Part shown: piece by piece, positions 1-62,872 of the stretch
Position numbering within the stretch: the stretch's first letter is position 1
Layout of the letters: each line of letters begins with the position of its first letter
Origin: a virus
Lineage: Duplodnaviria > Heunggongvirae > Uroviricota > Caudoviricetes
Length of the DNA stretch: 64,000 nucleotides
IMG/VR virus record: IMGVR_UViG_2718218139_000001
Reading direction: 5' to 3' (one strand)
Program-made: the position numbers and the translations under genes
The notes under the pieces: generated by a model
The model's input: only the letters and a program-made list of their open reading frames with translations
What the model was told of the DNA's origin: nothing
Databases searched by the model: none

Positions 1-44
1 CTCTTTGTTTAGTTAAAAATACATCGTTGGTATAGGTAGGGATT

Positions 45-3388: not shown

Positions 3389-3393
3389 TTATA

Positions 3394-15324: not shown

Positions 15325-15425
15325 ACCGGTCAGTCTACACATTTCAGATACTACGTTAAAACAACTCAAGTGCTTCAAGTAGCACATCGTCATCAACACC
15401 CAATCCGAAGATGCGGAGATAAAAT

Positions 15426-17103: not shown

Positions 17104-17191
17104 ATTTTTATCCTTTTTGTTTTAGATATTATAGGCATAGTCCATATTGTTAGATCCACTATGCCCAGAGAATTTAATATTATTCATTAAA

Positions 17192-21212: not shown

Positions 21213-21262
21213 TAGATTGCTCTAATCTGGAGTCACCTGGCGTTTTCAGTTTGAGGTCGGAG

Positions 21263-21508
21263 ATGCAATCTGATTTTTTACAGTTAGCGATCGCTTTTGC
21301 AGGATATGTTTGTATTGGCTTCTGTATATACATGTTCAGCCGAAAAATGCTTGTCGATATCGACCGCAAAGAACAAGCAGAGGAGATCTTAGTATGGATT
21401 TTCTTTGGCGCGGTCTGGCCATTAGGGATCATGTTTGCTGCAACATTTCTTCTGATGTGGATATTCACCCTTCCAGGTGATTTCTATAGAAAAAAAGCCA
21501 GACATTGA
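21263..21508 (+). CDS. small membrane protein
   Basis: ORF track 21182-21508, start placed at ATG 21263 after GAGGTCGGAG; two hydrophobic helices. Confidence 0.4.
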   Translation: MQSDFLQLAIAFAGYVCIGFCIYMFSRKMLVDIDRKEQAEEILVWIFFGAVWPLGIMFAATFLLMWIFTLPGDFYRKKARH

Positions 21509-21631
21509 TACAATCGTTGCGGGTGCTTGAGGCTATCTGCTTCAGGCATTACCCGAAAAGCAGATAGAAGAAAGCCCCAGATAACATTACGCGTCCTGCA
21601 AGACGCTTAACATTAATCTGAGGCCATATCT

Positions 21632-21838
21632 ATGCTTAGCATACGTAGATTAGCCTCTTACCGACCAAAAGGTCAAGGAGAAGCAGGCTATGAAGCAGCA
21701 AAAAGCGATGTTAATCGCTCTGATCGTCATCTGTTTAACCGTCATTGTGACGGCACTGGTAACGAGGAAAGACCTCTGCGAGGTACGAATCCGAACCGGC
21801 CAGACGGAGGTCACTGTCTTCACAGCCTACGAATCTGA
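21632..21838 (+). CDS. mok-like overlapping reading frame of hok locus
   Basis: 68-aa ORF in another frame covering the hok-like ORF, as in hok/mok arrangement. Confidence 0.35.
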   Translation: MLSIRRLASYRPKGQGEAGYEAAKSDVNRSDRHLFNRHCDGTGNEERPLRGTNPNRPDGGHCLHSLRI

Positions 21839-21845
21839 AAGGTAA
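21690..21845 (+). CDS. hok: Hok/Gef-family type I toxin
   Basis: 51 aa MKQQKAMLIALIVICLTVIVTALVTRKDLCEVRIRTGQTEVTVFTAYESER; matches Hok core LTRKSLCEIR..AAFMAYES; below ORF-track size cutoff. Confidence 0.8.
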   Translation: MKQQKAMLIALIVICLTVIVTALVTRKDLCEVRIRTGQTEVTVFTAYESER

Positions 21846-21919
21846 GAGACCTGGTGTGGAGAGATCCCCGCCACTCTTAGTGTGTCAGGTATCCTCAATG
21901 CACCCTTTCATCTCCAAAT

Positions 21920-39297: not shown

Positions 39298-39373
39298 GGC
39301 CCTTTAGCTCAGTGGTTAGAGCTGGCGACTCATAATCGCACGGTCACCGGTTCAAGTCCGGTAGGGGCCACCA
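39298..39373 (+). tRNA. tRNA-Ile2 (CAT anticodon, lysidine type)
   Basis: near-identity of anticodon arm GGCGACTCATAATCGC and overall sequence to E. coli ileX as recalled; CCA encoded. Confidence 0.75.
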
Positions 39374-47793: not shown

Positions 47794-47859
47794 AATAATA
47801 AATTAATTAGTGCATATGTGTTCTTTGATACAGCGCACATTAACATCGGGAGAATAATC

Positions 47860-49143: not shown

Positions 49144-49817
49144 TGGCACCCACAATTTATCACCGTATCGACGGTACCAAATACAGGAATGTCTGGGTTG
49201 TTGGTGATCTGCATGGTTGCTACACCAGACTGATGTCCGAACTCCATCGTGTGGATTTTGACCCGGCGCAGGATTTACTGATATCGGTCGGCGACCTTAT
49301 CGATCGCGGTACTGAAAATGTCGAATGTCTGGAACTATTGCAGATGCCCTGGTTCAGGGCAGTGATGGGGAACCATGAGCGGCTGATGATTGATGCGTTA
49401 AGTCCAGATGGCAACGTGAATAACTGGCTAATGAATGGCGGACAATGGTTCTTCATGCTGGACACTGATCAGGAAATATTAGCCTGGGCGCTGGTGGAGC
49501 TGGTAAAGCGTCTGCCCTATATCATTGAGTTGAACACCGGGCAAGAAACTATCGTTATAGCCCATGCCGACTATCCGGATAATGAATACCAATTCGGTAA
49601 GGAGGTGCCGCTTTTCAACGTTGTCTGGGCGCGCGAGCGTATCAGTGATTCGATGGATGATATTGGTGGCGAAATTTCGGGCGCAGATCGTTTTATCTTT
49701 GGTCACACTCCGGTGAAAAGCCCGAAGACATTCTGGAATCAGCAGTATATCGACACTGGTGCCGTATTTTGCGGAAACCTGACATTGATGAAAGTGAAAG
49801 GTGATGGTGCAGCATGA
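49125..49817 (+). CDS. ppp: Ser/Thr protein phosphatase (lambda-phosphatase family)
   Basis: ORF track 230 aa; GDLHG, GDLIDRG, GNHE motifs. Confidence 0.75.
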
Positions 49818-50515
49818 AGATTGCTTTAGTTTTTCGCTCTGGTGGTGACTATAACGCTTCCGATGTGCAGTGGCTGGTTAATCAACTGCCAAAAGGCTAT
49901 GAAATTATTTGCCTGACAGACCTGAAGCGTTTACATGTACCTGGCGTCAAAGTTGTCCCATTGATCAACCAGTGGCAAAAGTGCCGTGGCTGGTGGGCGA
50001 AAATCGAGTTGTTCCGACCGGATATAACAGATGATCTGTTCTATCTGGATTTGGACACAGTTATTGCCGGTGATATACGCCCAATCCTTGAGAATCCACC
50101 AACCAGCTTCACCATGCTTAGGGATTTTTACCATCCACAATATCGTGGTAGCGGTGCCCTGTGGATACCAAATAGTGTAAAAGCGCATATCTGGAGTTCA
50201 TTCTGGCAAGATCCGGAAGGTTGGATTTCTCGTTGTGTCACTACTGAGTGCTGGGGTGATCAGGGGTTCTTACGGAAGGTTATGGGCGATGATACACCAG
50301 CATTTCAGGATCTGTATCCAGGATGGTTTGTAAGTTACAAGGCCGATGTTGTGGAACCTGGTTCAAAATATGCGAGCGCGCGTTACTCCAGGGGGAATGG
50401 GGCATTACCAAAGGACTGCCGAATAATCTTTTTCCACGGCAAACCGCGACCTCGCGAAGTGTCAGAGGATTGGCTTCCCCTTATTAGCTCGTTTTTTGAG
50501 CGAGAATCAGAATAA
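49814..50515 (+). CDS. putative GT-A type glycosyltransferase (DxD motif)
   Basis: ORF track 233 aa; YLDLDTVI. Confidence 0.4.
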
Positions 50516-50516
50516 T

Positions 50517-50533
50517 ATTGCTCTAATAATTCC
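50517..50533 (+). promoter_or_regulatory. C1 operator (14/17), left arm of operator-terminator-operator unit
   Basis: ATTGCTCTAATAATTCC starting 2 bp after stop codon. Confidence 0.5.
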
Positions 50534-50541
50534 ATATTTTT

Positions 50542-50572
50542 AAAACGTGATGTACACTCATCACGTTTTTTA
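50542..50572. terminator. palindromic rho-independent terminator
   Basis: AACGTGATG-TACACT-CATCACGTT flanked by A-run and T-run. Confidence 0.65.
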
Positions 50573-50582
50573 TTAGAGCAAT
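50566..50582 (-). promoter_or_regulatory. C1 operator (14/17, inverted), right arm
   Basis: reverse complement ATTGCTCTAATAAAAAA. Confidence 0.45.
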
Positions 50583-50596
50583 CTACAAGGTGCACT

Positions 50597-50815
50597 ATGT
50601 GGCCATTCCGACGGAAATATCACTACTGGCTGATCGCCTTTGTTACGCCGACCGGCGGTATCAGGCATGTCATCACCAGGTATCGCAACAAGAGACTCAC
50701 CTTAGCCAGAATTTTACAGGCTGCCATAGGTGAGGGACTGGATACAAATTGCGTAGTCCTTCCTCCTTCATACTTAGGAAAAATGACCGAAGCACAAGCT
50801 AATACGGAACTTTGA
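50597..50815 (+). CDS. small hypothetical protein
   Basis: ORF track 72 aa. Confidence 0.45.
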   Translation: MWPFRRKYHYWLIAFVTPTGGIRHVITRYRNKRLTLARILQAAIGEGLDTNCVVLPPSYLGKMTEAQANTEL

Positions 50816-50816
50816 A

Positions 50817-52079
50817 ATGAGCACTTCAGCACAAAACCAATCAATCGAAAATGTATCTATCCCTGATGTCCTGAATGCCGGTATCCCGGCCATTATCCAG
50901 AACATCCGGGCCGCGCAACGCCGCGTTAGTTGTGATGACCTCACAGCACGTTTTTTTGATAATGCGGTTCAGTCAGCGGAGATGCTTCACGCACAGCTTA
51001 TTGATGTTTATAACGCAGAAGCTGATAGCCATAACTCCCTGGTAGATGCAGCTGAAAATATGCAGTTGGATCTCGGTCTGAAGGGTAAAGAAATTGAAGA
51101 GCTTCAGCTGCAAATTGAACATTTGAAACGCCAGCAACAGGACGCGATCGACGATGCGACGCATGACGCCAACCAGCGTGCTGATAATGCCGAACGTATA
51201 AGCATTGAGCTGGAAACAAAACTCAATGAAATGACCGCGATGGTTGAACTGCGGAACTCACAGATTTCAACGCTAAAATCTCAATATAAAGAGATCATGA
51301 AACTTGATCCTTTTAACCTTGAGAAACGCTATAACAAAGCTAAAAGCGAGCGACAGGAACTGCGTAAGCAGGTCGCTGACCTTAACCAACAGCTCAAAAA
51401 AACTATTAAAGATGCAAGCGAAGCGCGCGTGGCATTTGCTAATAAAAAAGCAGAGGTTACCGCGCTGGTTAATGAGAATGCCAAATTTGCGACGCTCAAG
51501 AAGGAAATGTATGGCATTACTGAGCGCCGTTTCCCTGCAAGCAAACTTCATCCGACGTTAGGGCAAATCTCCTTCTTCCCGCGCCTCCTGGCTTATGGGA
51601 TCTCATCGCCTAAAGAGTTCAATAACGAGCGTCCTTATATCGTTTCTAAGCTGGACTTTGCTTATCAGTTCTGCTGCGACATGGGCTATGCCATTGATAT
51701 CCGAATCAACGAATGGTTGATGCCAAACTTCCAGCCGTTGGCAATTTTCCGCGAGTTCCAGCCGGAAGGTTGGGTAGAGTTCTTCCATGAATTGATCTGT
51801 AAAGAGATGGAAAGCCGCCGCCCGGAATTGGTCCGTCGAGTTGAGTGGGCGCAAGAGGTTATGTTGGCAGATGCAGAGCTGCCGTTCGAACCGGAATTCA
51901 TTGATGATCTGGCAACTAAAGGGCTGCATACCCTGTTTGATGTGGTTACCCGCCGTCATGAGCAGTTGGTTGTCGAATTGGGTTTAGAGGAAACTGCGGC
52001 AAGAAGACTTCTCGATGTTTGCTATGCACGTAGCGATGCATGGGAAAAAGAGAACGGCGGCACTATTTACGTTCGCTGA
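50817..52079 (+). CDS. coiled-coil protein
   Basis: ORF track 420 aa; heptad-rich central region. Confidence 0.55.
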   Translation: MSTSAQNQSIENVSIPDVLNAGIPAIIQNIRAAQRRVSCDDLTARFFDNAVQSAEMLHAQLIDVYNAEADSHNSLVDAAENMQLDLGLKGKEIEELQLQIEHLKRQQQDAIDDATHDANQRADNAERISIELETKLNEMTAMVELRNSQISTLKSQYKEIMKLDPFNLEKRYNKAKSERQELRKQVADLNQQLKKTIKDASEARVAFANKKAEVTALVNENAKFATLKKEMYGITERRFPASKLHPTLGQISFFPRLLAYGISSPKEFNNERPYIVSKLDFAYQFCCDMGYAIDIRINEWLMPNFQPLAIFREFQPEGWVEFFHELICKEMESRRPELVRRVEWAQEVMLADAELPFEPEFIDDLATKGLHTLFDVVTRRHEQLVVELGLEETAARRLLDVCYARSDAWEKENGGTIYVR

Positions 52080-52098: not shown

Positions 52099-52133
52099 AA
52101 TGCTGGTGGAGTGCTCCCACCAGCATTTTTTTC
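52099..52133 (+). terminator. rho-independent terminator containing Chi on both strands
   Basis: AATGCTGGTGG-loop-CCACCAGCATT then TTTTTTT; GCTGGTGG at 52102. Confidence 0.65.
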
Positions 52134-52151
52134 GTCCAATGAGGAGGGCAT

Positions 52152-52658
52152 TTGAGTATTTTCAATAAACACGCACACCAGGAACGTCCGTACATCGTCA
52201 TAGTAGATATTGATGGGACGATATCAGAGGCAACGGAAGACAGGCTGCATTTACTTCCACCACCTGGCAAAGGTGCATTAACAGAGCACTGGAACGAGTT
52301 TAACCTTGCCTGTGACACTGATGCTCCCATCACTTCAGTTATTGATATGGTGCGCCAGTTGTCCGGCATTTACACCCTCTGGTTTGTAACCGGGCGCTGT
52401 GAGATAGCCAGGGATAAAACACGAGCCTGGTTGCGTAAGCACGTAACAAATGGGACTGAGCCTTTGCTATCTATGCGTCCTGCCACCGATGACAGAAATG
52501 ACGGTCCAGCAAAGATTGATCTCCTGAAGAAAATTGGTCTAAGTAAAATTGCGTTCGCGCTGGAAGATAAGATTGACGTGGCGCGTGTTTTCAGGAGTCA
52601 CGGCGTACTTACGTTAATGGTCAGGGAGTATGAAAACGCGCTTCTCCATCAACAATAA
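52152..52658 (+). CDS. HAD-superfamily phosphatase
   Basis: ORF track 168 aa; motif I VIVDIDGTI, motif II WFVTGR. Confidence 0.55.
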   Translation: MSIFNKHAHQERPYIVIVDIDGTISEATEDRLHLLPPPGKGALTEHWNEFNLACDTDAPITSVIDMVRQLSGIYTLWFVTGRCEIARDKTRAWLRKHVTNGTEPLLSMRPATDDRNDGPAKIDLLKKIGLSKIAFALEDKIDVARVFRSHGVLTLMVREYENALLHQQ

Positions 52659-52674
52659 TTGCTCTAATAAATCT
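52658..52674 (+). promoter_or_regulatory. C1 operator (16/17) overlapping stop codon
   Basis: ATTGCTCTAATAAATCT. Confidence 0.55.
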
Positions 52675-52756
52675 TGATTTTTAAAACAGAGAAAGTGAAA
52701 ATAAAAACATGCCGCAAGGCGCGGCATGTATCCAATCAATCACAGGAGCTGAAAAT

Positions 52757-52852: not shown

Positions 52853-53581
52853 ATGAAAGGCGAAGTGAAAGAGCGCGGCATGATTTTCAACGATGAGATG
52901 GTCCGAGCCATCCTCGAAGGAAGGAAAACGCAGACGCGGCGGATAATGAAAAATCAGCCTGCGGAAGTTGGTCCAGAAGCACCAGTGATGGTTAGGGAAA
53001 TTGGTGCAGGTTTTCAGTGGTACGGGGCTGATGGTGTAAGCAGTGTTTTCAATTGCCCCTTTGGTATCGTCGGCGATCGAATTTGGGTTCGTGAAACATG
53101 GACGATATTAGGCAATGAAGATGGTTGCAGTGTGGACTGGAACGACAACCTTTGTCGTGGCGATGAGAAGAACGCAGCAAGGATTTATCGGGCCAGTTGT
53201 GAGCAAAAACCTGGTGATTACGGCTTATGGTCGATACCCGATGATGCCGACTGGAAACCTCACACTGTGAATGAAAAGTTTGATGGTGGGTGGCGTCCAT
53301 CAATTCACATGCCGCGATGGGCATCACGCATTCTGTTGGAAATTACCAACGTGCGCGTTGAACGGTTGAACGATATCAGCGAATGCGATGCAAGGGCTGA
53401 GGGCGTTCCGCCTGCTGGAAGTTTGCTTCCTGATCACCCGGGAACATTCCTTACTCCCAAGAGGGATTTCGCAATGGCCAAGGTTGCGTTCCAGCGCCTG
53501 TGGGAATCCATCTATGGTGAAGAAAGCTGGAACGCTAATCCCTGGGTGTGGGTAATCGAGTTTAAGCGCATTCAGGAATAA
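52853..53581 (+). CDS. ASCH/PUA-like domain protein
   Basis: ORF track 242 aa; N-terminus MIFNDEMVRAILEGRKTQTRR. Confidence 0.5.
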   Translation: MKGEVKERGMIFNDEMVRAILEGRKTQTRRIMKNQPAEVGPEAPVMVREIGAGFQWYGADGVSSVFNCPFGIVGDRIWVRETWTILGNEDGCSVDWNDNLCRGDEKNAARIYRASCEQKPGDYGLWSIPDDADWKPHTVNEKFDGGWRPSIHMPRWASRILLEITNVRVERLNDISECDARAEGVPPAGSLLPDHPGTFLTPKRDFAMAKVAFQRLWESIYGEESWNANPWVWVIEFKRIQE

Positions 53582-53590
53582 ACCGTGAGT

Positions 53591-53668
53591 ATGCATCAAA
53601 TCGTCAGTTTTTCAGGTGGACGAGCATCGGCCTGTCTCGTTCATCTGTTCGAAGAGGTAGTGGCATGA
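53591..53668 (+). pseudogene. truncated remnant of PAPS-reductase-like gene (PP-loop N-terminus only)
   Basis: 25 codons MHQIVSFSGGRASACLVHLFEEVVA then stop; SFSGG(K/R).S is the N-terminal PP-loop of PAPS reductase family. Confidence 0.35.
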
Positions 53669-53868
53669 CAATCGTAAAAACCCATACCGGCACCGTGATC
53701 ACCAAAGACGGGCCGCAGGTAAAAAAACTGCACCAAACAGAGCGGATGTGGGTCGTCGGCAAAAATGAGTTTTACCACAAAGATACCGGACGCCGCCACT
53801 TTGCAGAAAATACGCGCCGTCGACTGCTGTTAGACACCATCAAGCCTATCGAGGTGAAGCATGTTTAA
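53665..53868 (+). CDS. small hypothetical protein
   Basis: ORF track 67 aa. Confidence 0.45.
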   Translation: MTIVKTHTGTVITKDGPQVKKLHQTERMWVVGKNEFYHKDTGRRHFAENTRRRLLLDTIKPIEVKHV

Positions 53869-54100
53869 ACAGAACGAAAAAGCTATCGCTCAAATTGCTG
53901 ATTATATCCCGCGTGCGTGCCGGGGTATGCAGTTGCAGGAAGCCAAAGCGCGCCTGGAGAAAAAAATTGCGCTCTATATTGATGACGGCTGTGATGCTGC
54001 CGTTCTTAACGCGGCGTTCGCACCAGCTCTTAACAGTCATACTCGGGAGTCTTTTTTTTCGTGCATCGAAGCGCAACTCCGCAAAGGAGGCAGCCAGTGA
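53861..54100 (+). CDS. small hypothetical protein ending ..LRKGGSQ
   Basis: ORF track 79 aa; C-terminal junction CGCAAAGGAGGCAGCCAGTGA shared with two other genes. Confidence 0.45.
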   Translation: MFKQNEKAIAQIADYIPRACRGMQLQEAKARLEKKIALYIDDGCDAAVLNAAFAPALNSHTRESFFSCIEAQLRKGGSQ

Positions 54101-54798
54101 GCGAAATTAATTACCGGGCACTGCGTGAGATAGCAAAACAGGCAACACAGGGCGAATGGGTCGCATTTATTTCGCCGGGTACTGGTACGTATGCGGTGCA
54201 TACGCCCGGTGATAAACGATGTGAAGACGTTATCAAATGGACCGGCTTTGATGGACTGAAAAACGCAGAGAACAACGCTCGTTATATTGCCGCATTCAAC
54301 CCAAAGGTTGCACTGGAGCTACTTGGTGAAATTAAGCGCCTGGAGGACACAAATATTGATGCTATGTGCCGAATAGCACCGCTTGAGACTAAGCTCGCGG
54401 CTCTGGTGGCAGAGAACGCTGGGCTGAAACACGCAATGGCTGTAACTCTTGATCATGTGTCGGTCACGGATGCAGGGCAGGCCGGAGTTGCTGCAATGAT
54501 TATCAACGATGCCCTACACCACAGCGAAACTCCAGCTACCGATGCTTTTCTGGCTGAAATTCGTGCGGAAGCACGCAACGAGGGGATTAACTATACCGCC
54601 AGCCGTCTTGCTGCTGCGTTCAATCACGGATTTATCAATAAGTCTTTGCGTGAAGTTTTCGACGTTACACGCATGATTTTGTCAGCGAAAGAAGAGTTGG
54701 CTAATGAAGCGCATCCGATTGATGGCCTGTCTGGTGAATATGCGGAGAAATCCCTTGAAGAATGGGCGGAACAGATTCGCAAAGGAAGCAGCCAGTGA
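54097..54798 (+). CDS. Ea22-like family protein, paralogue 1
   Basis: ORF track 54061-54798; GTG 54097 after AAAGGAGG; N-terminal SEINYRALRE, shared ATDAFLAEIRA block. Confidence 0.5.
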   Translation: MSEINYRALREIAKQATQGEWVAFISPGTGTYAVHTPGDKRCEDVIKWTGFDGLKNAENNARYIAAFNPKVALELLGEIKRLEDTNIDAMCRIAPLETKLAALVAENAGLKHAMAVTLDHVSVTDAGQAGVAAMIINDALHHSETPATDAFLAEIRAEARNEGINYTASRLAAAFNHGFINKSLREVFDVTRMILSAKEELANEAHPIDGLSGEYAEKSLEEWAEQIRKGSSQ

Positions 54799-55085
54799 AT
54801 ATCGACACGACAATAACGATCGATACGCTCCTAAATACCGGTCTGGCACTTCTCGGTTGGCTTTACATCATGTCCCGCACATGGCGATGGCTGGGTTCCA
54901 TTTTCCTAAAACAGTGGAAAAAACGGCGCAAACAGGAACTACGCCAGAAGGCATTAGAAGCGTTCTATGACGCATTTGAGCTTAGCCGCATTGAACCAGG
55001 TACAACAGCCAGGATAGCGACAAAAGGCGACCTGATGATAGTGATGTTCCGACAGGAGAGAGCAGAGAAAGGGGAATCAGCATGA
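54795..55085 (+). CDS. small membrane protein
   Basis: ORF track 54762-55085; GTG 54795 overlapping previous stop. Confidence 0.4.
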   Translation: MNIDTTITIDTLLNTGLALLGWLYIMSRTWRWLGSIFLKQWKKRRKQELRQKALEAFYDAFELSRIEPGTTARIATKGDLMIVMFRQERAEKGESA

Positions 55086-55816
55086 AAATTTCCAAATTTT
55101 CTGAGTTGGTGAATCGTATTTTGTCCAACAACCACAGCCATCGTCGCGATATGGATGTAACAATCGTTGTTCATTCGCCTGGCAGCATTGGTTCAACACC
55201 TTCAGTTGAGGTTCAGTCAATTCACGCTGGTTTTGATTGGGATTCCGGGAAAGTGCTTATTTTCCCATCACAGCCACTGACCACGCTAACACCAGAACAG
55301 ATTACTGATATCACTGATAGTGTGCGCAAAGGTCAGTCTTGGCACGCATATCAGGAATACAAGAAGCATCAAGAGCAGTTGGAAAAATTGTCGATTGAAC
55401 TGGATGCCGCAAAACAGCGCATTGCAGAGCTGGAGGGTAATCGCACGGCGCTGGCAGTGGAGAATGAGCTGGCTCGTAAGGCATTTCAGGCATTCTGCGA
55501 TGTTGTTGGCGACAACACCGAGGTTATCGCTGAGGTGGTTGGGCGAGATGGCGTTCTGGTTATTTTGAAGGCCATGAAGGCAACAGGAAATATGTCAGCC
55601 ACCGACGCTTTCTTGGCTGAAGTCCGGGCGCAGGGGGTGGATGCTGCTATAGAAGCTGCAAAAAATCTGGTGGCCCAAGAATATGAGTATAAGGATTTCA
55701 AAGCGGCGCAGAGTGATTGCTGTATGCACCCTGGTTCAGACCTGGTAGGGAAGGTTGAAATGACTGAGTGGTTAGTTGACTTTGCTGCCCAGCTTCGCAA
55801 AGGAGGCAACCAGTGA
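55082..55816 (+). CDS. Ea22-like family protein, paralogue 2
   Basis: ORF track 244 aa; shares ATDAFLAEVRA block and ..LRKGGNQ end. Confidence 0.5.
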   Translation: MKISKFSELVNRILSNNHSHRRDMDVTIVVHSPGSIGSTPSVEVQSIHAGFDWDSGKVLIFPSQPLTTLTPEQITDITDSVRKGQSWHAYQEYKKHQEQLEKLSIELDAAKQRIAELEGNRTALAVENELARKAFQAFCDVVGDNTEVIAEVVGRDGVLVILKAMKATGNMSATDAFLAEVRAQGVDAAIEAAKNLVAQEYEYKDFKAAQSDCCMHPGSDLVGKVEMTEWLVDFAAQLRKGGNQ

Positions 55817-56112
55817 CTGTATGTCTTATTGATAAACGTCGACGTGGGCAACAAATACCATCTGTTGAAATGCCGAATCACACATGGTTTTGCGTACTTG
55901 ATATCGATGGTATGGATACGTTGGTTGACACTCGTCATTACTGCGATACCGCAACAGCTACTCCGGCGAAAGCAAAGAAAATGGCTGCTCTGATAGAAAA
56001 CTGGACTCCACCTGATGGTTGGTGCAATGGGAATGATCGAGATTGGCACGAAAAAATGAAGGGCTATATCTGCGATTTTTTACGTAAATGCAACGGCTTC
56101 AGGGTGATGTGA
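55813..56112 (+). CDS. small hypothetical protein
   Basis: ORF track 99 aa. Confidence 0.45.
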   Translation: MTVCLIDKRRRGQQIPSVEMPNHTWFCVLDIDGMDTLVDTRHYCDTATATPAKAKKMAALIENWTPPDGWCNGNDRDWHEKMKGYICDFLRKCNGFRVM

Positions 56113-56113
56113 T

Positions 56114-56599
56114 ATGACCAAAATTAACTATCAGGCACTGCGTGAGGCGGCAGAACGTGCAATTCCGGCAATGGAACGCCTGTTAATGTTGCCAGTTGAT
56201 GATGATCTGATAAGCGAACAGGAACTTAAAGATTACGGTGTGGATATTGATGCGCTCAACGCCTTCAAATTTCTGGCCGGACCAGAAACCGTGCTGGCAC
56301 TACTGGATGAACGGGAAAGAAACCAGCAATACATCAAATCCCGCGACCAGGAGAACGAGGATATTGCGCTAACGGTAGGGAAGTTGCGCGTTGAGCTTGA
56401 GGCAGAAAAACAGCGGGCAAAGGATCTGTTTATGGAAAATGCTCGGCTTAAGTCAGGTATAGCCGGTCTGATACACCTCGGTATTCGATATGCAGATGTT
56501 GATGTCATGAAAATTGCTGGAGATGCCCAGCTTTCTACCCCATGCACTGACAGCATCATAAACAGCATTGCAACAGGCATTCGCATCAAAGGAGAGTGA
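56114..56599 (+). CDS. Ea22-like family protein, paralogue 3
   Basis: ORF track 161 aa; N-terminal KINYQALREAAE. Confidence 0.5.
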   Translation: MTKINYQALREAAERAIPAMERLLMLPVDDDLISEQELKDYGVDIDALNAFKFLAGPETVLALLDERERNQQYIKSRDQENEDIALTVGKLRVELEAEKQRAKDLFMENARLKSGIAGLIHLGIRYADVDVMKIAGDAQLSTPCTDSIINSIATGIRIKGE

Positions 56600-56600
56600 T

Positions 56601-56810
56601 ATGGCTATCGCTGCAAGTTACACCATGCATCTCTATTGTGACTGCCGCCAGTGTACGGAAGGTGTATATCCAGTGCCAGACTTCGGTGAGTATATCGGTA
56701 CGTCATGGTCTGGTTGTGCAAAAGAGGCCCGTAAAGACGGGTGGCGAATAAGTAAAGACAAAACACGTGCTTTTGCGCCCGGGCATAAAGTTTTGAGGAT
56801 TAACAAATGA
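56601..56810 (+). CDS. small Cys-rich protein
   Basis: ORF track 56568-56810; ATG 56601 after AAAGGAGAGTGAT; CDCRQC. Confidence 0.4.
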   Translation: MAIAASYTMHLYCDCRQCTEGVYPVPDFGEYIGTSWSGCAKEARKDGWRISKDKTRAFAPGHKVLRINK

Positions 56811-57169
56811 CCACTATTACCAAAGAACGTATCGAATTATTCATTAAAAATCCGCTTGATAACGGGCTTACCCGTGGCGAACAAATGGAACTGGCACGAA
56901 TTGCGCTGGCATCACTGGAAGCCGAACCGGTTGCAGTAAACGACGACATGGCTTACGCATTCCATCACGCATTGTCAGATTCATCGCTAGGCGCTGATGA
57001 AGTAGAGGAAATTAAGGCCGGTTTGCGTGCTGCCTTTGCCAACGTCACTATCCAACCAGAGCCGGTAGTGCCGGATGAAATCGAGCCAGACGATAGCAAT
57101 ACGTTTGATTATGTTGATGGCTGGAACGCCTGCCGCGCTGCCATGCTTCAGGGTAAGGGAGATGAGTAA
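56807..57169 (+). CDS. hypothetical protein, N-terminal paralogue of 58044-58613
   Basis: ORF track 120 aa; shared MTTITKER..ELARIALASLEAEPV. Confidence 0.5.
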   Translation: MTTITKERIELFIKNPLDNGLTRGEQMELARIALASLEAEPVAVNDDMAYAFHHALSDSSLGADEVEEIKAGLRAAFANVTIQPEPVVPDEIEPDDSNTFDYVDGWNACRAAMLQGKGDE

Positions 57170-57345
57170 TGCGTGTGGCATTTTTCGGCTTGTTACCGTA
57201 CCCGACTCGTTTTTGGGCTTCTGCGCTAATTGCAAAGCCACATGTCCTGATGGCTGACAACATCATCCCGGCACCAAAGCGCCGCCATACCGGTATTGCA
57301 GCGGCACGACGAGCAGCAAAGAGACGCAGGAGAGCAAAGCGATGA
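57169..57345 (+). CDS. small basic protein
   Basis: 58-codon ORF, ATG overlaps previous stop, Arg/Lys-rich C-terminus; below ORF-track cutoff. Confidence 0.3.
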   Translation: MRVAFFGLLPYPTRFWASALIAKPHVLMADNIIPAPKRRHTGIAAARRAAKRRRRAKR

Positions 57346-57530
57346 AAAACCGTAAAGCAAAGATTCTGTTAGTTCGTAGAAACGCTCCTGGCGTCTGGCA
57401 GTGGGTGAGACTCAGCAACCGACGGATGGGGTTGATGAAATATTACGGGATGATGGATTGTGGTTTTTGCAAAAAGCCCAGCGCGGCGCAAAACCGCTGG
57501 AAAAACCACTTGCGCACTAAAGGAGAGTGA
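57342..57530 (+). CDS. small hypothetical protein
   Basis: ORF track 62 aa; ATGA overlap with previous ORF. Confidence 0.3.
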   Translation: MKNRKAKILLVRRNAPGVWQWVRLSNRRMGLMKYYGMMDCGFCKKPSAAQNRWKNHLRTKGE

Positions 57531-57531
57531 T

Positions 57532-58047
57532 ATGGCGTTAACACACCGCGAACTCTGTCAGATTGCGTATAAGTTCCTTAAGCGCAACGGGTTCAAGGTT
57601 TGTTTTCATGACCGCTTTATAGCTGTAACCAGTACCGGAGAACAGCCAGATGCTATGGGATTCAGAAATTCAGCATCATGCCTGATAGAGGCGAAGTGTT
57701 CTCGTGCTGACTTGTTGGCAGATAGAAAAAAGCGTTTTCGTAAAAATCCATCTCTTGGAATGGGCGACTGGCGATTCTTTATTAGTGAGCCGGGAATTAT
57801 TTCAGTTGAGGATTTACCACCTGGCTGGGGATTACTTCACGTTGTTAACGGAAGAGTACGGAAAGTACATGGGTGGCCCAAGGGTAATTGCTGTTGGGGT
57901 AATCCTGACGATAAGCCATTTACTGGAAATAAGCAGGTTGAATGCGATTACATGTTATCTGCATTAAGGCGCATGGAGTTGAGAGGGCACCTTAATGAAA
58001 TATATGACGGTGTAATTGTTAATAAGAAAGAAGGAAACGCGGCATGA
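57532..58047 (+). CDS. MmcB-like PD-(D/E)xK nuclease family protein
   Basis: ORF track 57460-58047; ATG 57532 after AAAGGAGAGTGAT; ..PDAMGF..CLIEAKCSRADL. Confidence 0.5.
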   Translation: MALTHRELCQIAYKFLKRNGFKVCFHDRFIAVTSTGEQPDAMGFRNSASCLIEAKCSRADLLADRKKRFRKNPSLGMGDWRFFISEPGIISVEDLPPGWGLLHVVNGRVRKVHGWPKGNCCWGNPDDKPFTGNKQVECDYMLSALRRMELRGHLNEIYDGVIVNKKEGNAA

Positions 58048-58613
58048 TCACTATTACCAAAGAGCGACTGCTGACAATCAAGCAGTGGCGCGAAACATAC
58101 GGACCGGGTAGCAACGTTGTACTGCCAGCAGAAGAAGCGGAAGAACTGGCACGAATTGCTCTGGCATCGCTGGAAGCAGAGCCTGTAAACCAAACTTACA
58201 ACTTACCAGAATTAATCGAAGGCATGGAAGTTTCCATTGATGTAAGCACTTGTGATGCTGATTTAGGTAATCGCTATTTCGGCACCGTCACCGAGGCGTT
58301 AGAACTTGATACAGCCAAGAATGGTTACATCCTCCTGGTTCAGGACGCAGAGCCAAACTTCGATGTAAATGGCAACTCTCCGGTAACTCCGGATGGCTGG
58401 ATAAGCTGTAGTGAGCGAATGCCGGATACCAAAACAGCCGTTCTTGTTGCCAGGGAGTTTGACAGGAAAGGTGACTGGCGAATGAAATGGGCGACTTACA
58501 TCCCGGGGCATCCTGACGCTAATGATGGGTGGGTAATACCTGGTGCGTCGTGGATACCATCACACTGGATGCCGCTACCAGAACCGCCGCAGGAGGCGAA
58601 AAGATGGATGTAA
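58044..58613 (+). CDS. DUF551-like phage protein
   Basis: ORF track 189 aa; C-terminal DGWISCSERMPD..W..W. Confidence 0.5.
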   Translation: MITITKERLLTIKQWRETYGPGSNVVLPAEEAEELARIALASLEAEPVNQTYNLPELIEGMEVSIDVSTCDADLGNRYFGTVTEALELDTAKNGYILLVQDAEPNFDVNGNSPVTPDGWISCSERMPDTKTAVLVAREFDRKGDWRMKWATYIPGHPDANDGWVIPGASWIPSHWMPLPEPPQEAKRWM

Positions 58614-58861
58614 AAGAGAAGGTTTTGCAGGTGATGCGTTACCGGGCTGCCCTGCAAGATAAAGCTCTCGGCGGGGAATATCCATTCAGGATGGCAACCT
58701 GGAATCTGCGGTTGGCAATGGAGAAGGAATTTCCTGATGAAGAATGGCGTTCGGCAGATTTGCGCAAAATTCTTATGGAGCTGGCTAAAGACGGAACAGT
58801 ATCCAAAGATACCCATGCCAGCCGGATTGGTCAGGCGGTATGGAGACTGGAGGTGAGGTAA
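58604..58861 (+). CDS. small hypothetical protein
   Basis: ORF track 58529-58861; ATG 58604 after AGGAGG. Confidence 0.45.
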   Translation: MDVKEKVLQVMRYRAALQDKALGGEYPFRMATWNLRLAMEKEFPDEEWRSADLRKILMELAKDGTVSKDTHASRIGQAVWRLEVR

Positions 58862-59142
58862 TGGCTAACCTGCAACTTGCCGTTAAAGGTGAATACTTCG
58901 ATGCCATGATTCGCGGGGAGAAAACGGAAGAGTATCGCCTGTGTAATGACTACTGGAATAAGCGCCTCGTTAACCGTAAGTATTACCGCCTGATTATCAC
59001 AAAGGGATATCCGAAGCGCGAAGACTTCAGTCGCAGAATTGACGTCCCGTATAACGGATATGAAATAAAAACAATCACACATCCACACTTCGGTGATAAA
59101 CCGGTAAAGGTGTTCGCGATAAAAGTGAAGATTAATAGCTAA
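58861..59142 (+). CDS. ASCH-like small protein
   Basis: ORF track 58840-59142; ATG 58861 after GGAGGTGAGG; LAVKGEYFDAMIRGEKTEEYR. Confidence 0.45.
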   Translation: MANLQLAVKGEYFDAMIRGEKTEEYRLCNDYWNKRLVNRKYYRLIITKGYPKREDFSRRIDVPYNGYEIKTITHPHFGDKPVKVFAIKVKINS

Positions 59143-59165
59143 ATTTCAATTAACACGGAGTAATT

Positions 59166-59459
59166 ATGTGGCGCGGTAATAATCATGGCGGAAGTCAGAT
59201 GATACTTACCGAATATACGTTCGACCACAAAACCAATAAATCACGTTCAGTATATTTGCTTCGGCACAATAGCCGCGTAAGAAATACCGTTCTGGAGCAA
59301 AATCTGACCGTTGAAATGGATAATTTGGGAAACTTCAAGCCAACAATATCGCTTGATGATTTTCCGTGTGGTTTAAGCGAAAGAGAAGCAATGCTGAAAT
59401 TAGCAGAATGGCTACAAAGATTAAGCATTGCTATTGAAGATAACTGGTCTGAACCTTAA
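59166..59459 (+). CDS. small hypothetical protein
   Basis: ORF track 97 aa. Confidence 0.45.
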   Translation: MWRGNNHGGSQMILTEYTFDHKTNKSRSVYLLRHNSRVRNTVLEQNLTVEMDNLGNFKPTISLDDFPCGLSEREAMLKLAEWLQRLSIAIEDNWSEP

Positions 59460-59465
59460 ATTAAT

Positions 59466-59840
59466 ATGATGACACTAAAACATTTTCTTGACCGCCCATT
59501 ATGGGCGGCAGCCGCAGGCTATGACTTTAATTATATGGATTGCATGTCTTATACTGCCAATGCATACGACCATTCGTTCAGCCTGCTGTTTAATTCTTTA
59601 AGAATATTGCCGGAAACAGAAGTTGGAGAGCTTCATTTATGGATATTGGGCTTTATCGCGGCTGGAGTTGGTATTGCCGTATGGCCTTTTATTTTCTGGC
59701 TGGTGGCTGTTGTAGTGTGGTTTAAGTGCAAGACGTACCGGAAAAAGTATTTCTTAGGTGATGGAATGACTGATATTGCCAAAATGAACATTGAAAAATG
59801 GACTAAGGAATGTGAAAAGAAATGGCGCAAAAAGAAATGA
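59466..59840 (+). CDS. small membrane protein
   Basis: ORF track 124 aa; hydrophobic helix LWILGFIAAGVGIAVWPFIFWLVAVVVWF. Confidence 0.45.
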   Translation: MMTLKHFLDRPLWAAAAGYDFNYMDCMSYTANAYDHSFSLLFNSLRILPETEVGELHLWILGFIAAGVGIAVWPFIFWLVAVVVWFKCKTYRKKYFLGDGMTDIAKMNIEKWTKECEKKWRKKK

Positions 59841-60496
59841 CTACTCTAACGACAGCATACTTACAGCAATTGGTATTTTTTGCAGGCGAGGCTACTTGTC
59901 ATCCTGACGCAAACTATTTATTGGAATTTGAGAGGTTAGCGTCACCCGGTATCGTTCTGGAACTGGCCCAACAGGTGCTGGCCTTGAGACAAAAAGAGCA
60001 ACATAAAAGTAATACGTGTAGATTGAATTTTGAGCAGTGGCTGGAACAGCAACGCGGAAAAATCGATGTGGACTGTGGTTGTGTGTCCACTGAAACATTC
60101 ATGCACTGGCTGCGGGTAGCTTACGAGGCTGGCAACTATCCGGATATTCCGGATAGTTCGGTGCCAGCGCCAGGAAAGGGCGTCACCGGTGAACGTATCC
60201 GCATTAAGCCGCATGTTTATCGCGAACTGGTTAACCGTCTCCACGATACAGCGATCAAGTGTGCTGGCACCCAGCAATTACGAGAAAGAATTAGCCGTGT
60301 TTTGGGCGACGTTATTACGCCATATCATCATAAACAAGCCGAGAAAAGCGGTCTGGAAAGGTGTCATCTTGAGGCAGCATTAAACATTAAGCCGGGGCAT
60401 ACGCTTGGCATTATTGATGCACTGTTGGTTCATAAGATGGCCAGGGCTTTATTGTCGTTGGTGGACGCTGGTGATACAAGCGAGGGTGAAGTATGA
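59822..60496 (+). CDS. hypothetical protein
   Basis: ORF track 224 aa. Confidence 0.5.
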   Translation: MAQKEMTTLTTAYLQQLVFFAGEATCHPDANYLLEFERLASPGIVLELAQQVLALRQKEQHKSNTCRLNFEQWLEQQRGKIDVDCGCVSTETFMHWLRVAYEAGNYPDIPDSSVPAPGKGVTGERIRIKPHVYRELVNRLHDTAIKCAGTQQLRERISRVLGDVITPYHHKQAEKSGLERCHLEAALNIKPGHTLGIIDALLVHKMARALLSLVDAGDTSEGEV

Positions 60497-61068: not shown

Positions 61069-61930
61069 TCAGGTGGTTCCTTGTCAAATGTAAAGGTGCA
61101 CTTGCTCACGTTGACGTAGAAACCCAACCCCTATATAGTTGGATTCGGTGAATGAAAGTCGTTAACGTGAGCTTACGGCACATGTTTTCGGAAAAACATC
61201 AGGGAACGGCTAATTCCTTGATGCGGGTGGGGTCTGTAATGCAGACCCTATCTATTAACGTCATGATTGCATCTCAAATTTTCTCCTTATCTTCAATTAA
61301 TCTACATTCATTTCATCTGTTAGCCACCACAATATGTAGAAAATGGCCCTCTTGCAAGTGCATAACTTTGTGGATAACTCAGGAAGGAAAAAGTGGCTTT
61401 CGCGCACCTTCGGTCAGACAAGGTGTCCGGGAAAGTCAACGCAAAGAAAAAAATTGTTAAAAATAACGTTTGTTGGAATTGTATATTTTTATCCCCTTCA
61501 ATGGTTAGCATTCTATTAACATCTTTTTTTAGAGACAGAAAAACATATCGTAACAACATATATACAGTATTAAGAGGCGAGTATTATCCTGCGGTGGGAA
61601 TTCTGGGCGCTGTTAGATTCGACTTTCTCAGCAGGATTACATCGTCAACTTGCGACGTTGCCGTATGACTTTCGTGTAATAGGTGACAATGATGCGGCTA
61701 GTGAGTTACTTGTGAAGTTTTTCGGAAAAGGTTTTGTGGCCTCGGATCTTGATGAGCTACAGCAACATGAAGTGTCTAATTTGATTTTTAGCCATAGCCA
61801 ATAAGCCTCCCTCCTCCATCAAGGCCACAATTTGTGACCTTAAACAATTTGTTTTCTGCTTTTTCTTATTTGAGAAAATAACGTTGTTGACAGCTAATAG
61901 GCTCGTTGTTGTTATACATGCCTGTATAGA

Positions 61931-62287
61931 TTATGACCGTAAATTATTAGCGGATTTTAAGCCATATTCACCGTTGTAGAAATTACTCATGTTCCATTCA
62001 TTGGGAAGCTCTTTTCTGTCCAATGTATAGTGGCGCACGATATAACGATCTTCATCTTCTTCGATGGACAGGCGGACATAGCCAATGTGAATCACCGATA
62101 CGGGCGGTGTTCGTATTGCATAGATGTCGCGGAGATATACCGGTAGCTCGACAAATGCATCAGGTGCATCTGTGACGCTCGTTTTTTCACAGTATTCATA
62201 TAACGCATCGTTGATATCGTTAAGAGATTCATGATCGTATATTTCCAGGTAATTACCGCGATCGCGATGGTACTCGATTTTAGCCAT
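61931..62287 (-). CDS. hypothetical protein
   Basis: ORF track 118 aa. Confidence 0.45.
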   Translation of the reverse strand: MAKIEYHRDRGNYLEIYDHESLNDINDALYEYCEKTSVTDAPDAFVELPVYLRDIYAIRTPPVSVIHIGYVRLSIEEDEDRYIVRHYTLDRKELPNEWNMSNFYNGEYGLKSANNLRS

Positions 62288-62872
62288 TCAAAATCCCCTG
62301 TTATCGTTTTGCATTTCTCTAATCCGGTTCAGAACTACTTCATGCTGGGCTTGGATAGCGGCTTTTTCGTTTTCAAGCCGGGCGATAGACATCTCCAATT
62401 CTTTGCTGTACCAGGCGAGCTGGGCCAGGTTCATCCGGTTGTGGTCGAGAGTTGGAGACACTTCGACGCGATCCCTTTCTTCCTGCTTTAATGAGAAGAG
62501 ATTCATCTCATCCCTTGAGGAAAATTCAGCAACAATTTCTTGTTGATGATCCGGTCGCTGCGGCATCCTCGCCAGTATAAATGGCGGTTCTTTTGAAAAC
62601 ATGAATGTCGGTTCAGACCGTGTTTTTACCCAGCTTGCCTGCTGTCTTTCGGCAAGTTCACAGGCTTCATCATAGTTATCTGCCAAACAAAGCACGGATG
62701 GACGGTCCCACGCCCCACCATTCAGACAATAAACTACAATTTTCCCGTCAGGTTGTGTAACCCCATATGGATGGTCCCACCAGGCGTCCAGCTGAGCTTT
62801 AGAGCGTTTCTCGTTAGGAGTGCAGTCAAAATTTTTGGGCAATACAGGATCGAGAGGAATGCGATTAGGCAT
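62288..62872 (-). CDS. hypothetical protein divergent from humD (possibly LexA-regulated)
   Basis: ORF track 194 aa. Confidence 0.5.
   Translation of the reverse strand: MPNRIPLDPVLPKNFDCTPNEKRSKAQLDAWWDHPYGVTQPDGKIVVYCLNGGAWDRPSVLCLADNYDEACELAERQQASWVKTRSEPTFMFSKEPPFILARMPQRPDHQQEIVAEFSSRDEMNLFSLKQEERDRVEVSPTLDHNRMNLAQLAWYSKELEMSIARLENEKAAIQAQHEVVLNRIREMQNDNRGF

What the first reader, a model, noticed from the sequence alone, without database searches (positions are those of the whole stretch)
50517..50582. Operator-terminator-operator composite and operators fused to stop codons
Two C1-operator-like 17-mers in inverted orientation flank a perfect palindromic terminator (AACGTGATG-TACACT-CATCACGTT). 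Elsewhere, operators overlap the stop codons of dmt (36928-36955, itself an overlapping inverted pair) and of the HAD phosphatase gene (52658). Repressor binding immediately at transcript 3' ends and at operon boundaries suggests control of readthrough between early operons, not only promoter occlusion.
Basis: partly seen in the sequence, partly recalled or inferred. Interest (0 to 1): 0.4.

Follow-up and report, generated by a model that had tools for sequence, protein, structure and literature searches.

The report
P1 repressor sites bracketing a terminator
Two already-catalogued binding sites for the phage P1 C1 repressor flank a conserved transcription terminator in front of the essential gene pmgR; this is a compact but ordinary promoter region, and the idea that the repressor also blocks read-through at gene ends is plausible but untested.

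Summary
The window is a P1-like phage (RCS47 type). Two inverted C1-operator 17-mers (50517-50533 +, 50566-50582 -) flank a strong hairpin plus T-tract (50542-50574). Other operators touch the stop codons of dmt (36928-36955) and of the HAD phosphatase gene pap (52658-52674).

All are already annotated in the curated P1 record as Op86a/b, Op72ab and Op88. No terminator is annotated there.

New here:
- The hairpin is kept in relatives about 70% identical, through compensatory and G·U changes.
- Published P1vir RNA-seq shows a 4-8x step-up from pmgQ to pmgR at 10 min, so a promoter fires inside the composite.
- P1-wide, 8 of 10 operators at co-directional gene junctions lie within -9..+7 nt of the upstream stop codon (P about 1e-5). 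Those junctions lack intrinsic terminators, except this one.

Best reading: a C1-repressed promoter for pmgR-pmgS with an embedded intrinsic terminator that ends the upstream pmgL-pmgQ unit. Its own transcripts start inside the hairpin and escape termination.

It is neither shown nor needed for this site. Already known; modest interest.

The parts
49814..50515 (+). pmgQ, last gene of the upstream pmgL-pmgQ unit; stop TAA at 50513-50515
   Evidence: ORF; P1 annotation
50517..50533 (+). C1 operator Op86a (OpmgRa); its TTGCTC is the predicted -35 of PpmgR
   Evidence: the 13-nt core is nearly invariant in 33 variants
50542..50569 (+). Hairpin: 5' arm 50542-50552, loop TACACT 50553-50558, 3' arm 50559-50569
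   Evidence: -13.4 kcal/mol, z -7.4; compensatory pairs; diverged versions
50566..50574 (+). T-tract TTTTTTATT of the terminator; it also forms the 3' tail of the inverted operator Op86b
   Evidence: columns 50-57 invariant in the 19-variant alignment
50566..50582 (-). C1 operator Op86b (OpmgRb), inverted, between the transcription start region and the pmgR ribosome-binding site
50597..50815 (+). [quoted passage not shown]
   Evidence: PMC9024508
50817..52079 (+). pmgS, second gene of the unit
52099..52137 (+). Strong intrinsic terminator after pmgS (11-bp stem, then TTTTTCGTCC)
   Evidence: RNA-seq drop from pmgS 9.99 to pap 8.45 at 10 min
52152..52658 (+). pap, HAD-family phosphatase; the last base of its stop codon is the first base of Op88
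52658..52674 (+). C1 operator Op88 (OpmgT), overlapping the predicted promoters P1/P2pmgT
   Evidence: RNA-seq step-up from pap 8.45 to pmgT 9.72
36928..36955 (.). Bivalent C1 operator Op72ab (Obanab); the dmt stop codon TAA at 36935-36937 is the operator's own TAA
21216..21232 (+). Op55 (Orlf) core ATTGCTCTAAT, 4 nt after the repL stop (21212); homology to P1 ends right after the core
47800..47816 (-). Op83 (Oppp), 7 nt after the pmgM stop

Best explanation
The 66-bp composite is the control region of the pmgR-pmgS transcription unit of a P1-type phage.

In a lysogen, C1 repressor occupies Op86a and Op86b. Op86a sits over or just upstream of the -35. Op86b sits at or just downstream of the transcription start. 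Together they shut the promoter.

In lytic growth C1 is inactivated and the promoter fires early. The hairpin plus T-tract between the operators is an intrinsic terminator for RNA polymerase arriving from the upstream pmgL-pmgQ unit.

The pmgR promoter starts transcription inside or just after the hairpin. Its own RNA therefore lacks the 5' arm and is not terminated. The two units are thus insulated within 81 bp.

Operators abut stop codons mainly because the operator is the first functional element of each downstream promoter cassette, and spare DNA has been squeezed out.

What is shown and what is inferred:
- Shown: the sequence anatomy, conservation of the hairpin, the expression step at the site, and the non-random placement of operators.
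- Inferred: C1 occupancy of these two sites, the exact start site, and actual termination.
For: 1. Identity: the region is 99-100% identical to P1/RCS47. The curated P1 and P7 records annotate both operators, with a predicted promoter PpmgR, as controlling pmgR/pmgS.

2. Hairpin strength: z -7.4.

3. Hairpin conservation: the hairpin sits at the same place, with a different sequence, in JK004 and four IMG/VR lineages. Two pairs show GC<->AU compensation and six vary only through G·U. Overall 97% of cells are paired, against 41-58% in the slid controls. U·G pairs in JK004 and L008 break the DNA palindrome but keep + strand RNA pairing. The T-tract is invariant across the 19 aligned variants. 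One retrieved variant adds a T.

4. Promoter activity (P1vir RNA-seq, log2 fold-change against 0 min):
- At 10 min, pmgO/pmgP/ppp/pmgQ are 7.0-7.4, while pmgR is 9.02 and pmgS 9.99. In the dksA host the step is 6.2 to 9.0-9.1.
- From 10 to 30 min pmgR/pmgS rise by about 1.7-1.8, like other early genes. pmgO-pmgQ rise by about 4.3-4.6.
- At 30 min pmgR (10.8) is below pmgQ (11.7), so there is no additive late read-through.

5. CRISPRi: roadblocks in pmgO-pmgQ are not lethal although pmgR is essential by deletion. This is weak evidence.

6. Start site: both candidate promoters place the start inside or after the hairpin. One has -10 TAAAAC at 50541-50546. The other uses the loop hexamer; TTTACT-16-TATCAT passes the scan in JK004, and loop T37, A38 and T42 are invariant.
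Against: - The start site is not mapped, and neither promoter model reaches the scanner's threshold in this window.
- The annotated -10 carries A->G at its key second position in JK004 and in several P1-type variants.
- Within the P1-type population the stem shows as many variable sites as the free spacer. There are 14 distinct substitutions in 22 columns, 8 of them disruptive. Short-term constraint on pairing is therefore weak.
- The RNA-seq values are fold-changes against 0 min, not absolute abundances, and cannot measure termination efficiency.
- I could not read the P1 genome paper. I therefore cannot say whether C1 binding to Op86a/b was shown experimentally, or whether the terminator was already listed there.
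- Compaction alone does not explain stop-adjacent operators where 110-670 bp of spacer follow (repL, dmt, pap, coi).
Confidence: 0.7

Rival explanations
1. C1 bound at operators that abut stop codons acts as an elongation roadblock. It stops polymerases coming from the upstream operon, controlling read-through between operons in addition to occluding promoters. At Op86, C1 and the terminator would act together.
For: - Stop-adjacent placement is non-random: 8 of 10 junctions, P about 1e-5. It holds where long spacers follow (repL 168 bp, pap 194 bp, dmt more than 114 bp, coi 110 bp).
- It is reproduced in JK004, with six junctions at 0-2 nt.
- These junctions have no predicted + strand intrinsic terminator. 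The two operators far from a stop (Oref, OrepL) have a hairpin between stop and operator.
- At repL the operator core persists although the downstream module is replaced.
- pdcB, upstream of Olpa, belongs to the phd-doc region. From my own knowledge that region is transcribed in lysogens.
- Precedent: LacI at O3 roadblocks lacI transcription (PMC3711431). Roadblocks stop about 96% of polymerases from weak promoters (PMC4132739).
Against: - There are no data with and without C1.
- At Op86 the terminator is repressor-independent.
- With C1 on Op86a, a polymerase would stall before it transcribes the hairpin, so the two devices do not cooperate. This is a geometric inference.
- Most upstream units are themselves C1-repressed, so there is little to block in a lysogen.
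- In P1vir infection, where C1 should be inactivated by antirepressor, ref->mat and pdcB->lpa still drop about 8-fold at 10 min. Something other than C1 may limit read-through there.
- The operator's TTGCTC is the -35 of P1ban, which the record lists without the qualifier 'predicted'. Promoter control therefore explains the position at dmt.
Confidence: 0.25
2. Leader attenuator. The pmgR promoter starts upstream of the hairpin. The terminator then attenuates the unit's own transcripts, as proposed for P1 ref (promoter-operator plus attenuator-antiterminator).
For: - P1 has such an arrangement at ref. Oref and its promoters are followed by GGCGGCC-ATTA-GGCCGCC-T8 directly before the ref start codon.
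- The title of Windle, Laufer and Hays 1988, as listed in PMC4713147, describes this control.
Against: - No promoter-like hexamers upstream would put the start before 50542 (and manual inspection).
- pmgR/pmgS are among the more strongly expressed early genes at 10 min. That does not fit an efficient leader terminator.
Confidence: 0.07
3. The palindrome is a DNA-level element rather than an RNA terminator: either the binding site of a dimeric protein or a cruciform that modulates the promoter.
For: - It is a perfect 9-11 bp inverted repeat centred in a promoter.
- The whole 66 bp is an interrupted palindrome.
- The conserved loop T-A-n-n-n-T suggests a DNA-level (-10) reading of the centre.
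Against: - In this window the exact half-site occurs only at the composite. P1 has two further exact copies inside genes, about what chance gives.
- Lineages replace half-site bases with compensating partners.
- Two lineages carry T·G, which breaks DNA symmetry but keeps RNA pairing.
- The invariant T-tract directly after the stem is the signature of an intrinsic terminator.
Confidence: 0.04

Closest known systems
P1 operators Op86a/Op86b (OpmgRa/OpmgRb) with predicted promoter PpmgR, GenBank AF234172 / NC_005856; Op(sht a/b) in P7
   Same: It is the same locus. The 66-bp sequence is identical between this window and the P1 and P7 loci. Both 17-mers are annotated as monovalent C1 operators controlling pmgR and pmgS.
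   Different: The records annotate no terminator here or anywhere else in P1. Hairpin conservation, the expression step and the loop-as--10 alternative come from this analysis.
Bivalent C1 operators Op72ab (ban) and Op99ab (c1) of P1
   Same: They are two C1 17-mers in inverted orientation at a promoter that abuts the stop codon of the preceding gene (dmt, coi).
   Different: In the bivalent operators the two sites overlap, with an 11-bp offset. In Op86 they are 32 bp apart, with a terminator hairpin between them.
P1 ref control region (promoter-operator plus attenuator; Windle, Laufer and Hays 1988, title as listed in PMC4713147)
   Same: A C1 operator-promoter is combined with a strong hairpin and T-run directly before the start codon.
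   Different: At ref there is one operator. The terminator lies about 70 nt downstream of it, in the leader of at least the distal promoter. At Op86 the terminator lies between two operators and probably spans the start site.
LacI roadblock at lac O3, at the 3' end of lacI
   Same: A repressor site sits at the end of an upstream gene. The bound repressor truncates that gene's transcripts, and the product is SsrA-tagged (PMC3711431).
   Different: This is demonstrated for LacI and not tested for C1. From my own knowledge, LacI is a looping tetramer and C1 binds asymmetric sites as a monomer.
Rho-independent (intrinsic) terminators with an A-tract upstream and a T-tract downstream
   Same: It has a stem-loop followed by a U-tract, 27 nt after a stop codon, with a flanking A-tract that pairs with the T-tract.
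   Different: The stem is only moderately G+C-rich, with 4 G-C pairs. The terminator is embedded in a promoter, and its T-tract doubles as the tail of a repressor site.

Membership tests
P1 C1-controlled operator | Asymmetric 17-bp site matching ATTGCTCTAATAAATTT, with a conserved 5' core | tested here: met
   Both sites match 14 of 17 positions, with the 13-nt core exact. The cores show 1 variable site in 26 columns among the 33 variants.
P1 C1-controlled operator | Correspondence to a catalogued operator of P1 | tested here: met
   Annotated as OpmgRa/b (former Op86a/b), Obanab (Op72ab) and OpmgT (Op88) in AF234172.
P1 C1-controlled operator | Binding of C1 protein, enhanced by Lxc | not testable with these tools
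   It needs a footprint, EMSA or ChIP.
Rho-independent terminator | Stable stem-loop immediately followed by a U-rich tract | tested here: met
   -13.4 kcal/mol, z -7.4; the core 7-bp stem is -9.0 kcal/mol; the tail is TTTTTTATT.
Rho-independent terminator | Pairing maintained in evolution by compensatory change | tested here: met
   Two pairs have changes on both sides and six pairs vary by G·U only. 97% of cells are paired, against 41-58% when slid. The caveat is that there are few independent lineages.
Rho-independent terminator | Transcripts actually end at the U-tract | not testable with these tools
   There is only indirect evidence: no additive late read-through into pmgR/pmgS at 30 min.
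Sigma-70 promoter (PpmgR) | -35 and -10 hexamers with 16-18 bp spacing | tested here: inconclusive
   The annotated TTGCTC-17-TAAAAC fails the scan threshold. The alternative with the loop as -10 passes only in JK004.
Sigma-70 promoter (PpmgR) | Transcription initiates between pmgQ and pmgR | tested here: met
   There is a 4-8x step-up at 10 min in two hosts. This is a proxy, not a mapped start.
Repressor roadblock (lacI-O3 type) | Operator within or at the 3' end of a transcribed upstream gene | tested here: met
   Stops lie at -9..+7 nt for 8 of 10 junctions.
Repressor roadblock (lacI-O3 type) | Repressor-dependent truncated transcripts or reduced downstream expression | not testable with these tools
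   No data set with and without C1 was found.
P1 late (Lpa-dependent) promoter | -22 box AAGTGACTT placed 4-5 nt before a TAnAAT -10 | tested here: not met
   The 11 annotated late promoters were aligned. The composite has no such box at the right spacing.

The most novel reading that the evidence does not exclude
C1 operators that abut stop codons form a genome-wide insulation system in P1-type phages. At junctions with no intrinsic terminator (ref/mat, repL/rlf, dmt/ban, pap/pmgT, pdcB/lpa, coi/c1), bound C1 is the only barrier to read-through.

A polymerase stalls some 10-20 nt before the operator, so the last ORF is cut before its stop codon. Its product would be sent to tmRNA tagging, as with LacI at O3. 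This could, for example, remove the anti-repressor Coi whenever C1 is present.

A second element of the reading is that the Op86 terminator loop doubles as the -10 hexamer of the next promoter.
Probability: 0.2. Interest if true: 0.55.

Novelty: already known. Interest (0 to 1): 0.3.

Why it matters
P1 is a workhorse phage, and the backbone of many phage-plasmids that carry resistance genes. Its roughly 20 dispersed C1 operators are its master switch.

The finding adds no new element, but it sharpens the map in three ways:
- The pmgQ/pmgR boundary is a real boundary between transcription units, with an unannotated, conserved terminator nested in the promoter.
- Operators sit at stop codons far more often than chance allows.
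- Most of those junctions lack terminators.

If C1 does roadblock there, prophage silencing in this family would rest on elongation blocks as well as promoter occlusion. That would matter for engineering P1 vectors and for predicting expression of cargo inserted at these junctions.

Tried and rejected
- **P1 genome paper and ref attenuator paper.** I tried to read Lobocka 2004 (PMC523184) and Windle 1988 (PMC211533). Neither is held. I could not check whether a terminator between pmgQ and pmgR was already listed, or whether C1 binding to Op86 was measured.
- **Literature searches.** Searches for Op86/Op72/Op88 and for C1 with terminators or roadblocks found nothing specific. No P1 lysogen transcriptome was found.
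- **Built-in terminator scan.** It missed the hairpin. I attribute this, without checking the scanner, to the stem absorbing the T-tract, and I replaced it with my own scan. That scan is crude: it gives 107 hits in P1, many of them inside genes.
- **Genome-contig scan.** It gave only two near-identical loci.
- **Late-promoter reading.** Rejected, because there is no -22 box.
- **Recurring protein-site reading.** Rejected, because the half-site recurs no more than chance gives.
- **Rfam.** No family matches the composite.
- **G·U versus A·C asymmetry.** Used as a test of the transcribed strand, it gave 6 against 4 distinct substitutions, which is not significant. By locus count it is about 31 against 7, but loci are not independent and some were retrieved twice.
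- **CRISPRi polarity.** The data are uninformative in the end, because the pmgR knock-down itself scored non-essential.

Full report
**What the window is**

Bases 49500-51500 are 100% identical to phage RCS47 and 99.2% identical to P1. A BLAST map shows the window collinear with P1 coordinates of about 37.1-88.5 kb, with a few replaced or inserted segments. The window is therefore a P1-type phage or phage-plasmid. The "C1 operators" are those of the P1 immunity repressor.

**Check of the observation**

- The two 17-mers at 50517-50533 (+) and 50566-50582 (-) are present. Their 13-nt core is exact, and the three mismatches fall in the loose 3' tail.
- The operator motif occurs 9 times in the window against 0.36 expected.
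- Between the two sites lies AAAACGTGATG-TACACT-CATCACGTTTT, followed by TTATT. As RNA it folds at -13.4 kcal/mol (z -7.4). The operator arms can extend it to -26.9 kcal/mol.
- dmt ends at 36937, inside Op72a, and uses the operator's own TAA as its stop codon.
- pap is a HAD-type phosphatase (PF25109). It ends at 52658, which is the first base of the next operator.
- pmgQ ends 2 nt before Op86a.

All statements of fact in the finding hold.

**These sites are already catalogued**

The curated P1 record AF234172 annotates four relevant features:
- 82152-82168 as OpmgRa (former Op86a) and 82201-82217 as OpmgRb (former Op86b), "controls expression of pmgR and pmgS".
- A predicted promoter PpmgR, whose -35 is the operator's TTGCTC and whose -10 is TAAAAC at the left foot of the hairpin.
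- Obanab (Op72ab) over the dmt stop codon.
- OpmgT (Op88) at the pap stop codon.

P7 carries the same annotation. The record has no terminator features at all. I could not open the P1 genome paper. I therefore cannot say whether the hairpin was listed there.

**The hairpin is functional, most likely as RNA**

I collected the region from JK004 (a Cronobacter phage about 70% identical), 80 IMG/VR loci, 51 metagenome contigs and 80 further viral contigs listed of 120 matching stretches. Every hit to the operator-pair pattern spans the same 64-65 nt, so there is one architecture only.

Among 33 distinct 66-67-nt variants:
- The operator cores are almost invariant.
- The left spacer and the middle of the loop drift.
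- The stem differs between lineages by paired changes: P1 type ACGTGATG/CATCACGT, L009 type ACATGGTG/CACCATGT, JK004 type GCATGGTG/CGCCATGT.

On 19 variants, two pairs show GC<->AU compensation and six vary only through G·U. Overall 97% of cells are paired, against 41-58% for the slid controls. The U·G pair in JK004 and L008 breaks the DNA palindrome but not + strand RNA pairing.

The T-tract is invariant across the 19 aligned variants, and one retrieved variant adds a T. The half-site does not recur beyond chance, and no Rfam family matches.

Two caveats apply. The independent lineages are few. Within the P1-type population the stem carries many rare variants, 8 of 14 of them disruptive, so short-term constraint is weak.

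**The site is also an active promoter**

The supplementary table of a P1vir RNA-seq study (PMC8201110; log fold-change against 0 min) gives these values.

| Gene(s) | WT 10 min | WT 30 min | dksA 10 min |
|---|---|---|---|
| pmgO, pmgP, ppp, pmgQ | 7.39, 6.99, 6.95, 7.05 | 11.3-11.8 | pmgQ 6.23 |
| pmgR | 9.02 | 10.81 | 9.00 |
| pmgS | 9.99 | 11.70 | 9.09 |

- This is a 4-8-fold step exactly at the composite.
- From 10 to 30 min pmgR/pmgS rise by about 1.7-1.8 log2, like other early genes. Examples are hrdC (9.40 to 11.98) and pmgT (9.72 to 11.66).
- pmgO-pmgQ rise by about 4.3-4.6. True late genes rise by 6-8.
- At 30 min pmgR (10.81) is below pmgQ (11.66). Late transcription from upstream is therefore not simply added to the downstream unit, which fits termination.

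These are fold-changes, not absolute levels, and they give no termination efficiency.

**Where the promoter starts is open**

There are two models.
- Model A is the annotated one: TTGCTC-17-TAAAAC, with the start in the loop.
- Model B is mine: the loop hexamer is the -10, the start is near the end of the 3' arm, and Op86b then covers +1 to +17.

For model B, loop positions 1, 2 and 6 (T, A, T) are invariant in all variants while positions 3-5 change. TTTACT-16-TATCAT passes the promoter scan in JK004. The model A -10 has A->G at its critical second base in JK004 and several P1-type variants.

For model A, Op86a, Op88 and Op99e share the extended module ATTGCTCTAATAA..(A/T)(T/G)ATTTTTA, which in Op86a and Op88 continues to TAAAAC.

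Neither model passes the scan in this window. In both, the unit's own RNA lacks the 5' arm and escapes the terminator.

**Operators at stop codons, genome-wide**

I took the full P1 annotation and the operator sequences. Of 10 operators that follow a co-directional gene, 8 start within -9..+7 nt of that gene's stop:
- ref/Omat
- repL/Orlf
- dmt/Oban
- pmgM/Oppp
- pmgQ/Op86a
- pap/Op88
- pdcB/Olpa
- coi/Oc1ab

Oc1c also lies 3 nt after imcB. With uniform placement in each intergenic space, the probability of 8 or more is about 1e-5.

The ref and dmt stop codons are the operator's own TAA. Five others are a TAA 0-6 nt before the operator, whose 5' flank is A-rich. JK004 shows six such junctions at 0-2 nt.

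A crude terminator scan shows three things:
- The two "far" operators (Oref, OrepL) each have a hairpin between stop and operator.
- The "near" junctions have no + strand terminator.
- Op86 is the only place in P1 where a + strand terminator sits next to operators.

JK004 has two more operator/terminator fusions. One has the same geometry as Op86b: the hairpin's T-tract forms the tail of an inverted operator.

**Interpretation**

The simplest account has two parts. Each early unit begins with a promoter-operator cassette whose first element is the operator. Non-functional DNA between the preceding stop codon and that element has been lost.

This does not fully explain junctions followed by 110-670 bp of spacer. 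It also does not explain the persistence of the Op55 core at the end of repL in this window, where the downstream rlfA-rlfB module is replaced by a small ORF and a hok/sok cassette.

A roadblock role for C1 is therefore a reasonable additional hypothesis. LacI at O3 does exactly this to lacI transcripts (PMC3711431). Roadblocks are very effective against weak transcription (PMC4132739).

From the established footprint of RNA polymerase (my own knowledge), a polymerase stopped by a protein at or just after a stop codon has not yet transcribed that codon. Non-stop messages and tmRNA tagging would follow (compare PMC13584721, listed).

None of this is tested for C1. At Op86 specifically, the terminator needs no repressor. 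C1 on Op86a would stall a polymerase before the hairpin is made. The upstream unit is itself C1- and Lpa-dependent.

**Verdict**

The elements are already known: Op86a/b, Op72ab and Op88. The best model is a C1-repressed, terminator-insulated promoter for pmgR-pmgS (confidence about 0.7). The read-through-control idea is plausible but untested (about 0.25 as a physiologically relevant extra function). Interest is modest.

Noticed in passing
window 21216-21232 and 21227-21919: Homology to P1 breaks exactly after the operator core ATTGCTCTAAT of Op55 (Orlf), 4 nt after the repL stop. P1's rlfA-rlfB are replaced by a small membrane-protein-like ORF (21263-21508) and a hok/sok cassette (sok RF01794 at 21521-21695; hok-like ORF at 21690-21845). 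Operators may mark mosaic junctions.
   Followed up: partly
window 52707-52729 (- strand), tail to about 52697: A strong terminator-like hairpin with its T-tract on the minus strand lies about 35 nt after Op88, inside the pmgT leader. No minus-strand gene lies nearby. The P1 record says this segment matches DNA downstream of plasmid hsd loci, so it may be a relic of an acquired module.
   Followed up: partly
window 50553-50558: In the hairpin loop TACACT, positions 1, 2 and 6 (T, A, T) are invariant in all 33 variants while positions 3-5 vary (TATCAT, TATTAT in other lineages). This is the pattern of a sigma-70 -10 hexamer. The terminator loop may double as the -10 of the pmgR promoter.
   Followed up: partly
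window 50517-50546, 52658-52687; P1 94724-94753: Op86a, Op88 and Op99e share an extended module of about 30 nt: ATTGCTCTAATAA, four variable bases, then ATTTTTAAAAC or TTTTTATG. They look like paralogous promoter-operator cassettes.
   Followed up: no
L089 13242-13300 (- strand); L090 23205-23243 (JK004 record 70205-70243, - strand): JK004 has two further operator/terminator fusions. In one, a CCCCGGCC...GGGG hairpin has a T-tract that forms the tail of an inverted operator. In the other the order is stop codon, 2 nt, operator, then AAAACGCCAATTATTGGCGTTTTTTT.
   Followed up: partly
P1 2046-2071 (L003; outside the window): A strong terminator (GGCGGCC-ATTA-GGCCGCC-T8, -16.2 kcal/mol) sits between the ref promoters and operator and the ref start codon. 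The ATG follows 5 nt after the T-run, with no visible Shine-Dalgarno sequence. It matches the 'attenuator' in the title of Windle et al. 1988.
   Followed up: partly
P1 genes ref/mat and pdcB/lpa (RNA-seq table of PMC8201110): At 10 min of P1vir infection, expression drops about 8-fold from ref (8.29) to mat (5.08) and from pdcB (9.57) to lpa (6.62). I predict no intrinsic terminator at these operator-bearing junctions, and C1 should be inactivated by antirepressor. The cause is unexplained; candidates are Rho, residual C1 or RNA stability.
   Followed up: no
window 53547-60121: A segment of about 6.5 kb with no P1 counterpart interrupts the pmgT region (P1 85182). Further replaced segments lie at 1-5895, 15325-17543 and 61408-62337. 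Their content was not examined.
   Followed up: no
window 37611-37854 and 39298-39370: Rfam finds four tRNA genes, where the P1 record annotates three. The extra hit at 37691-37774 scores low (41.9 bits) and lies in a locally duplicated stretch.
   Followed up: no
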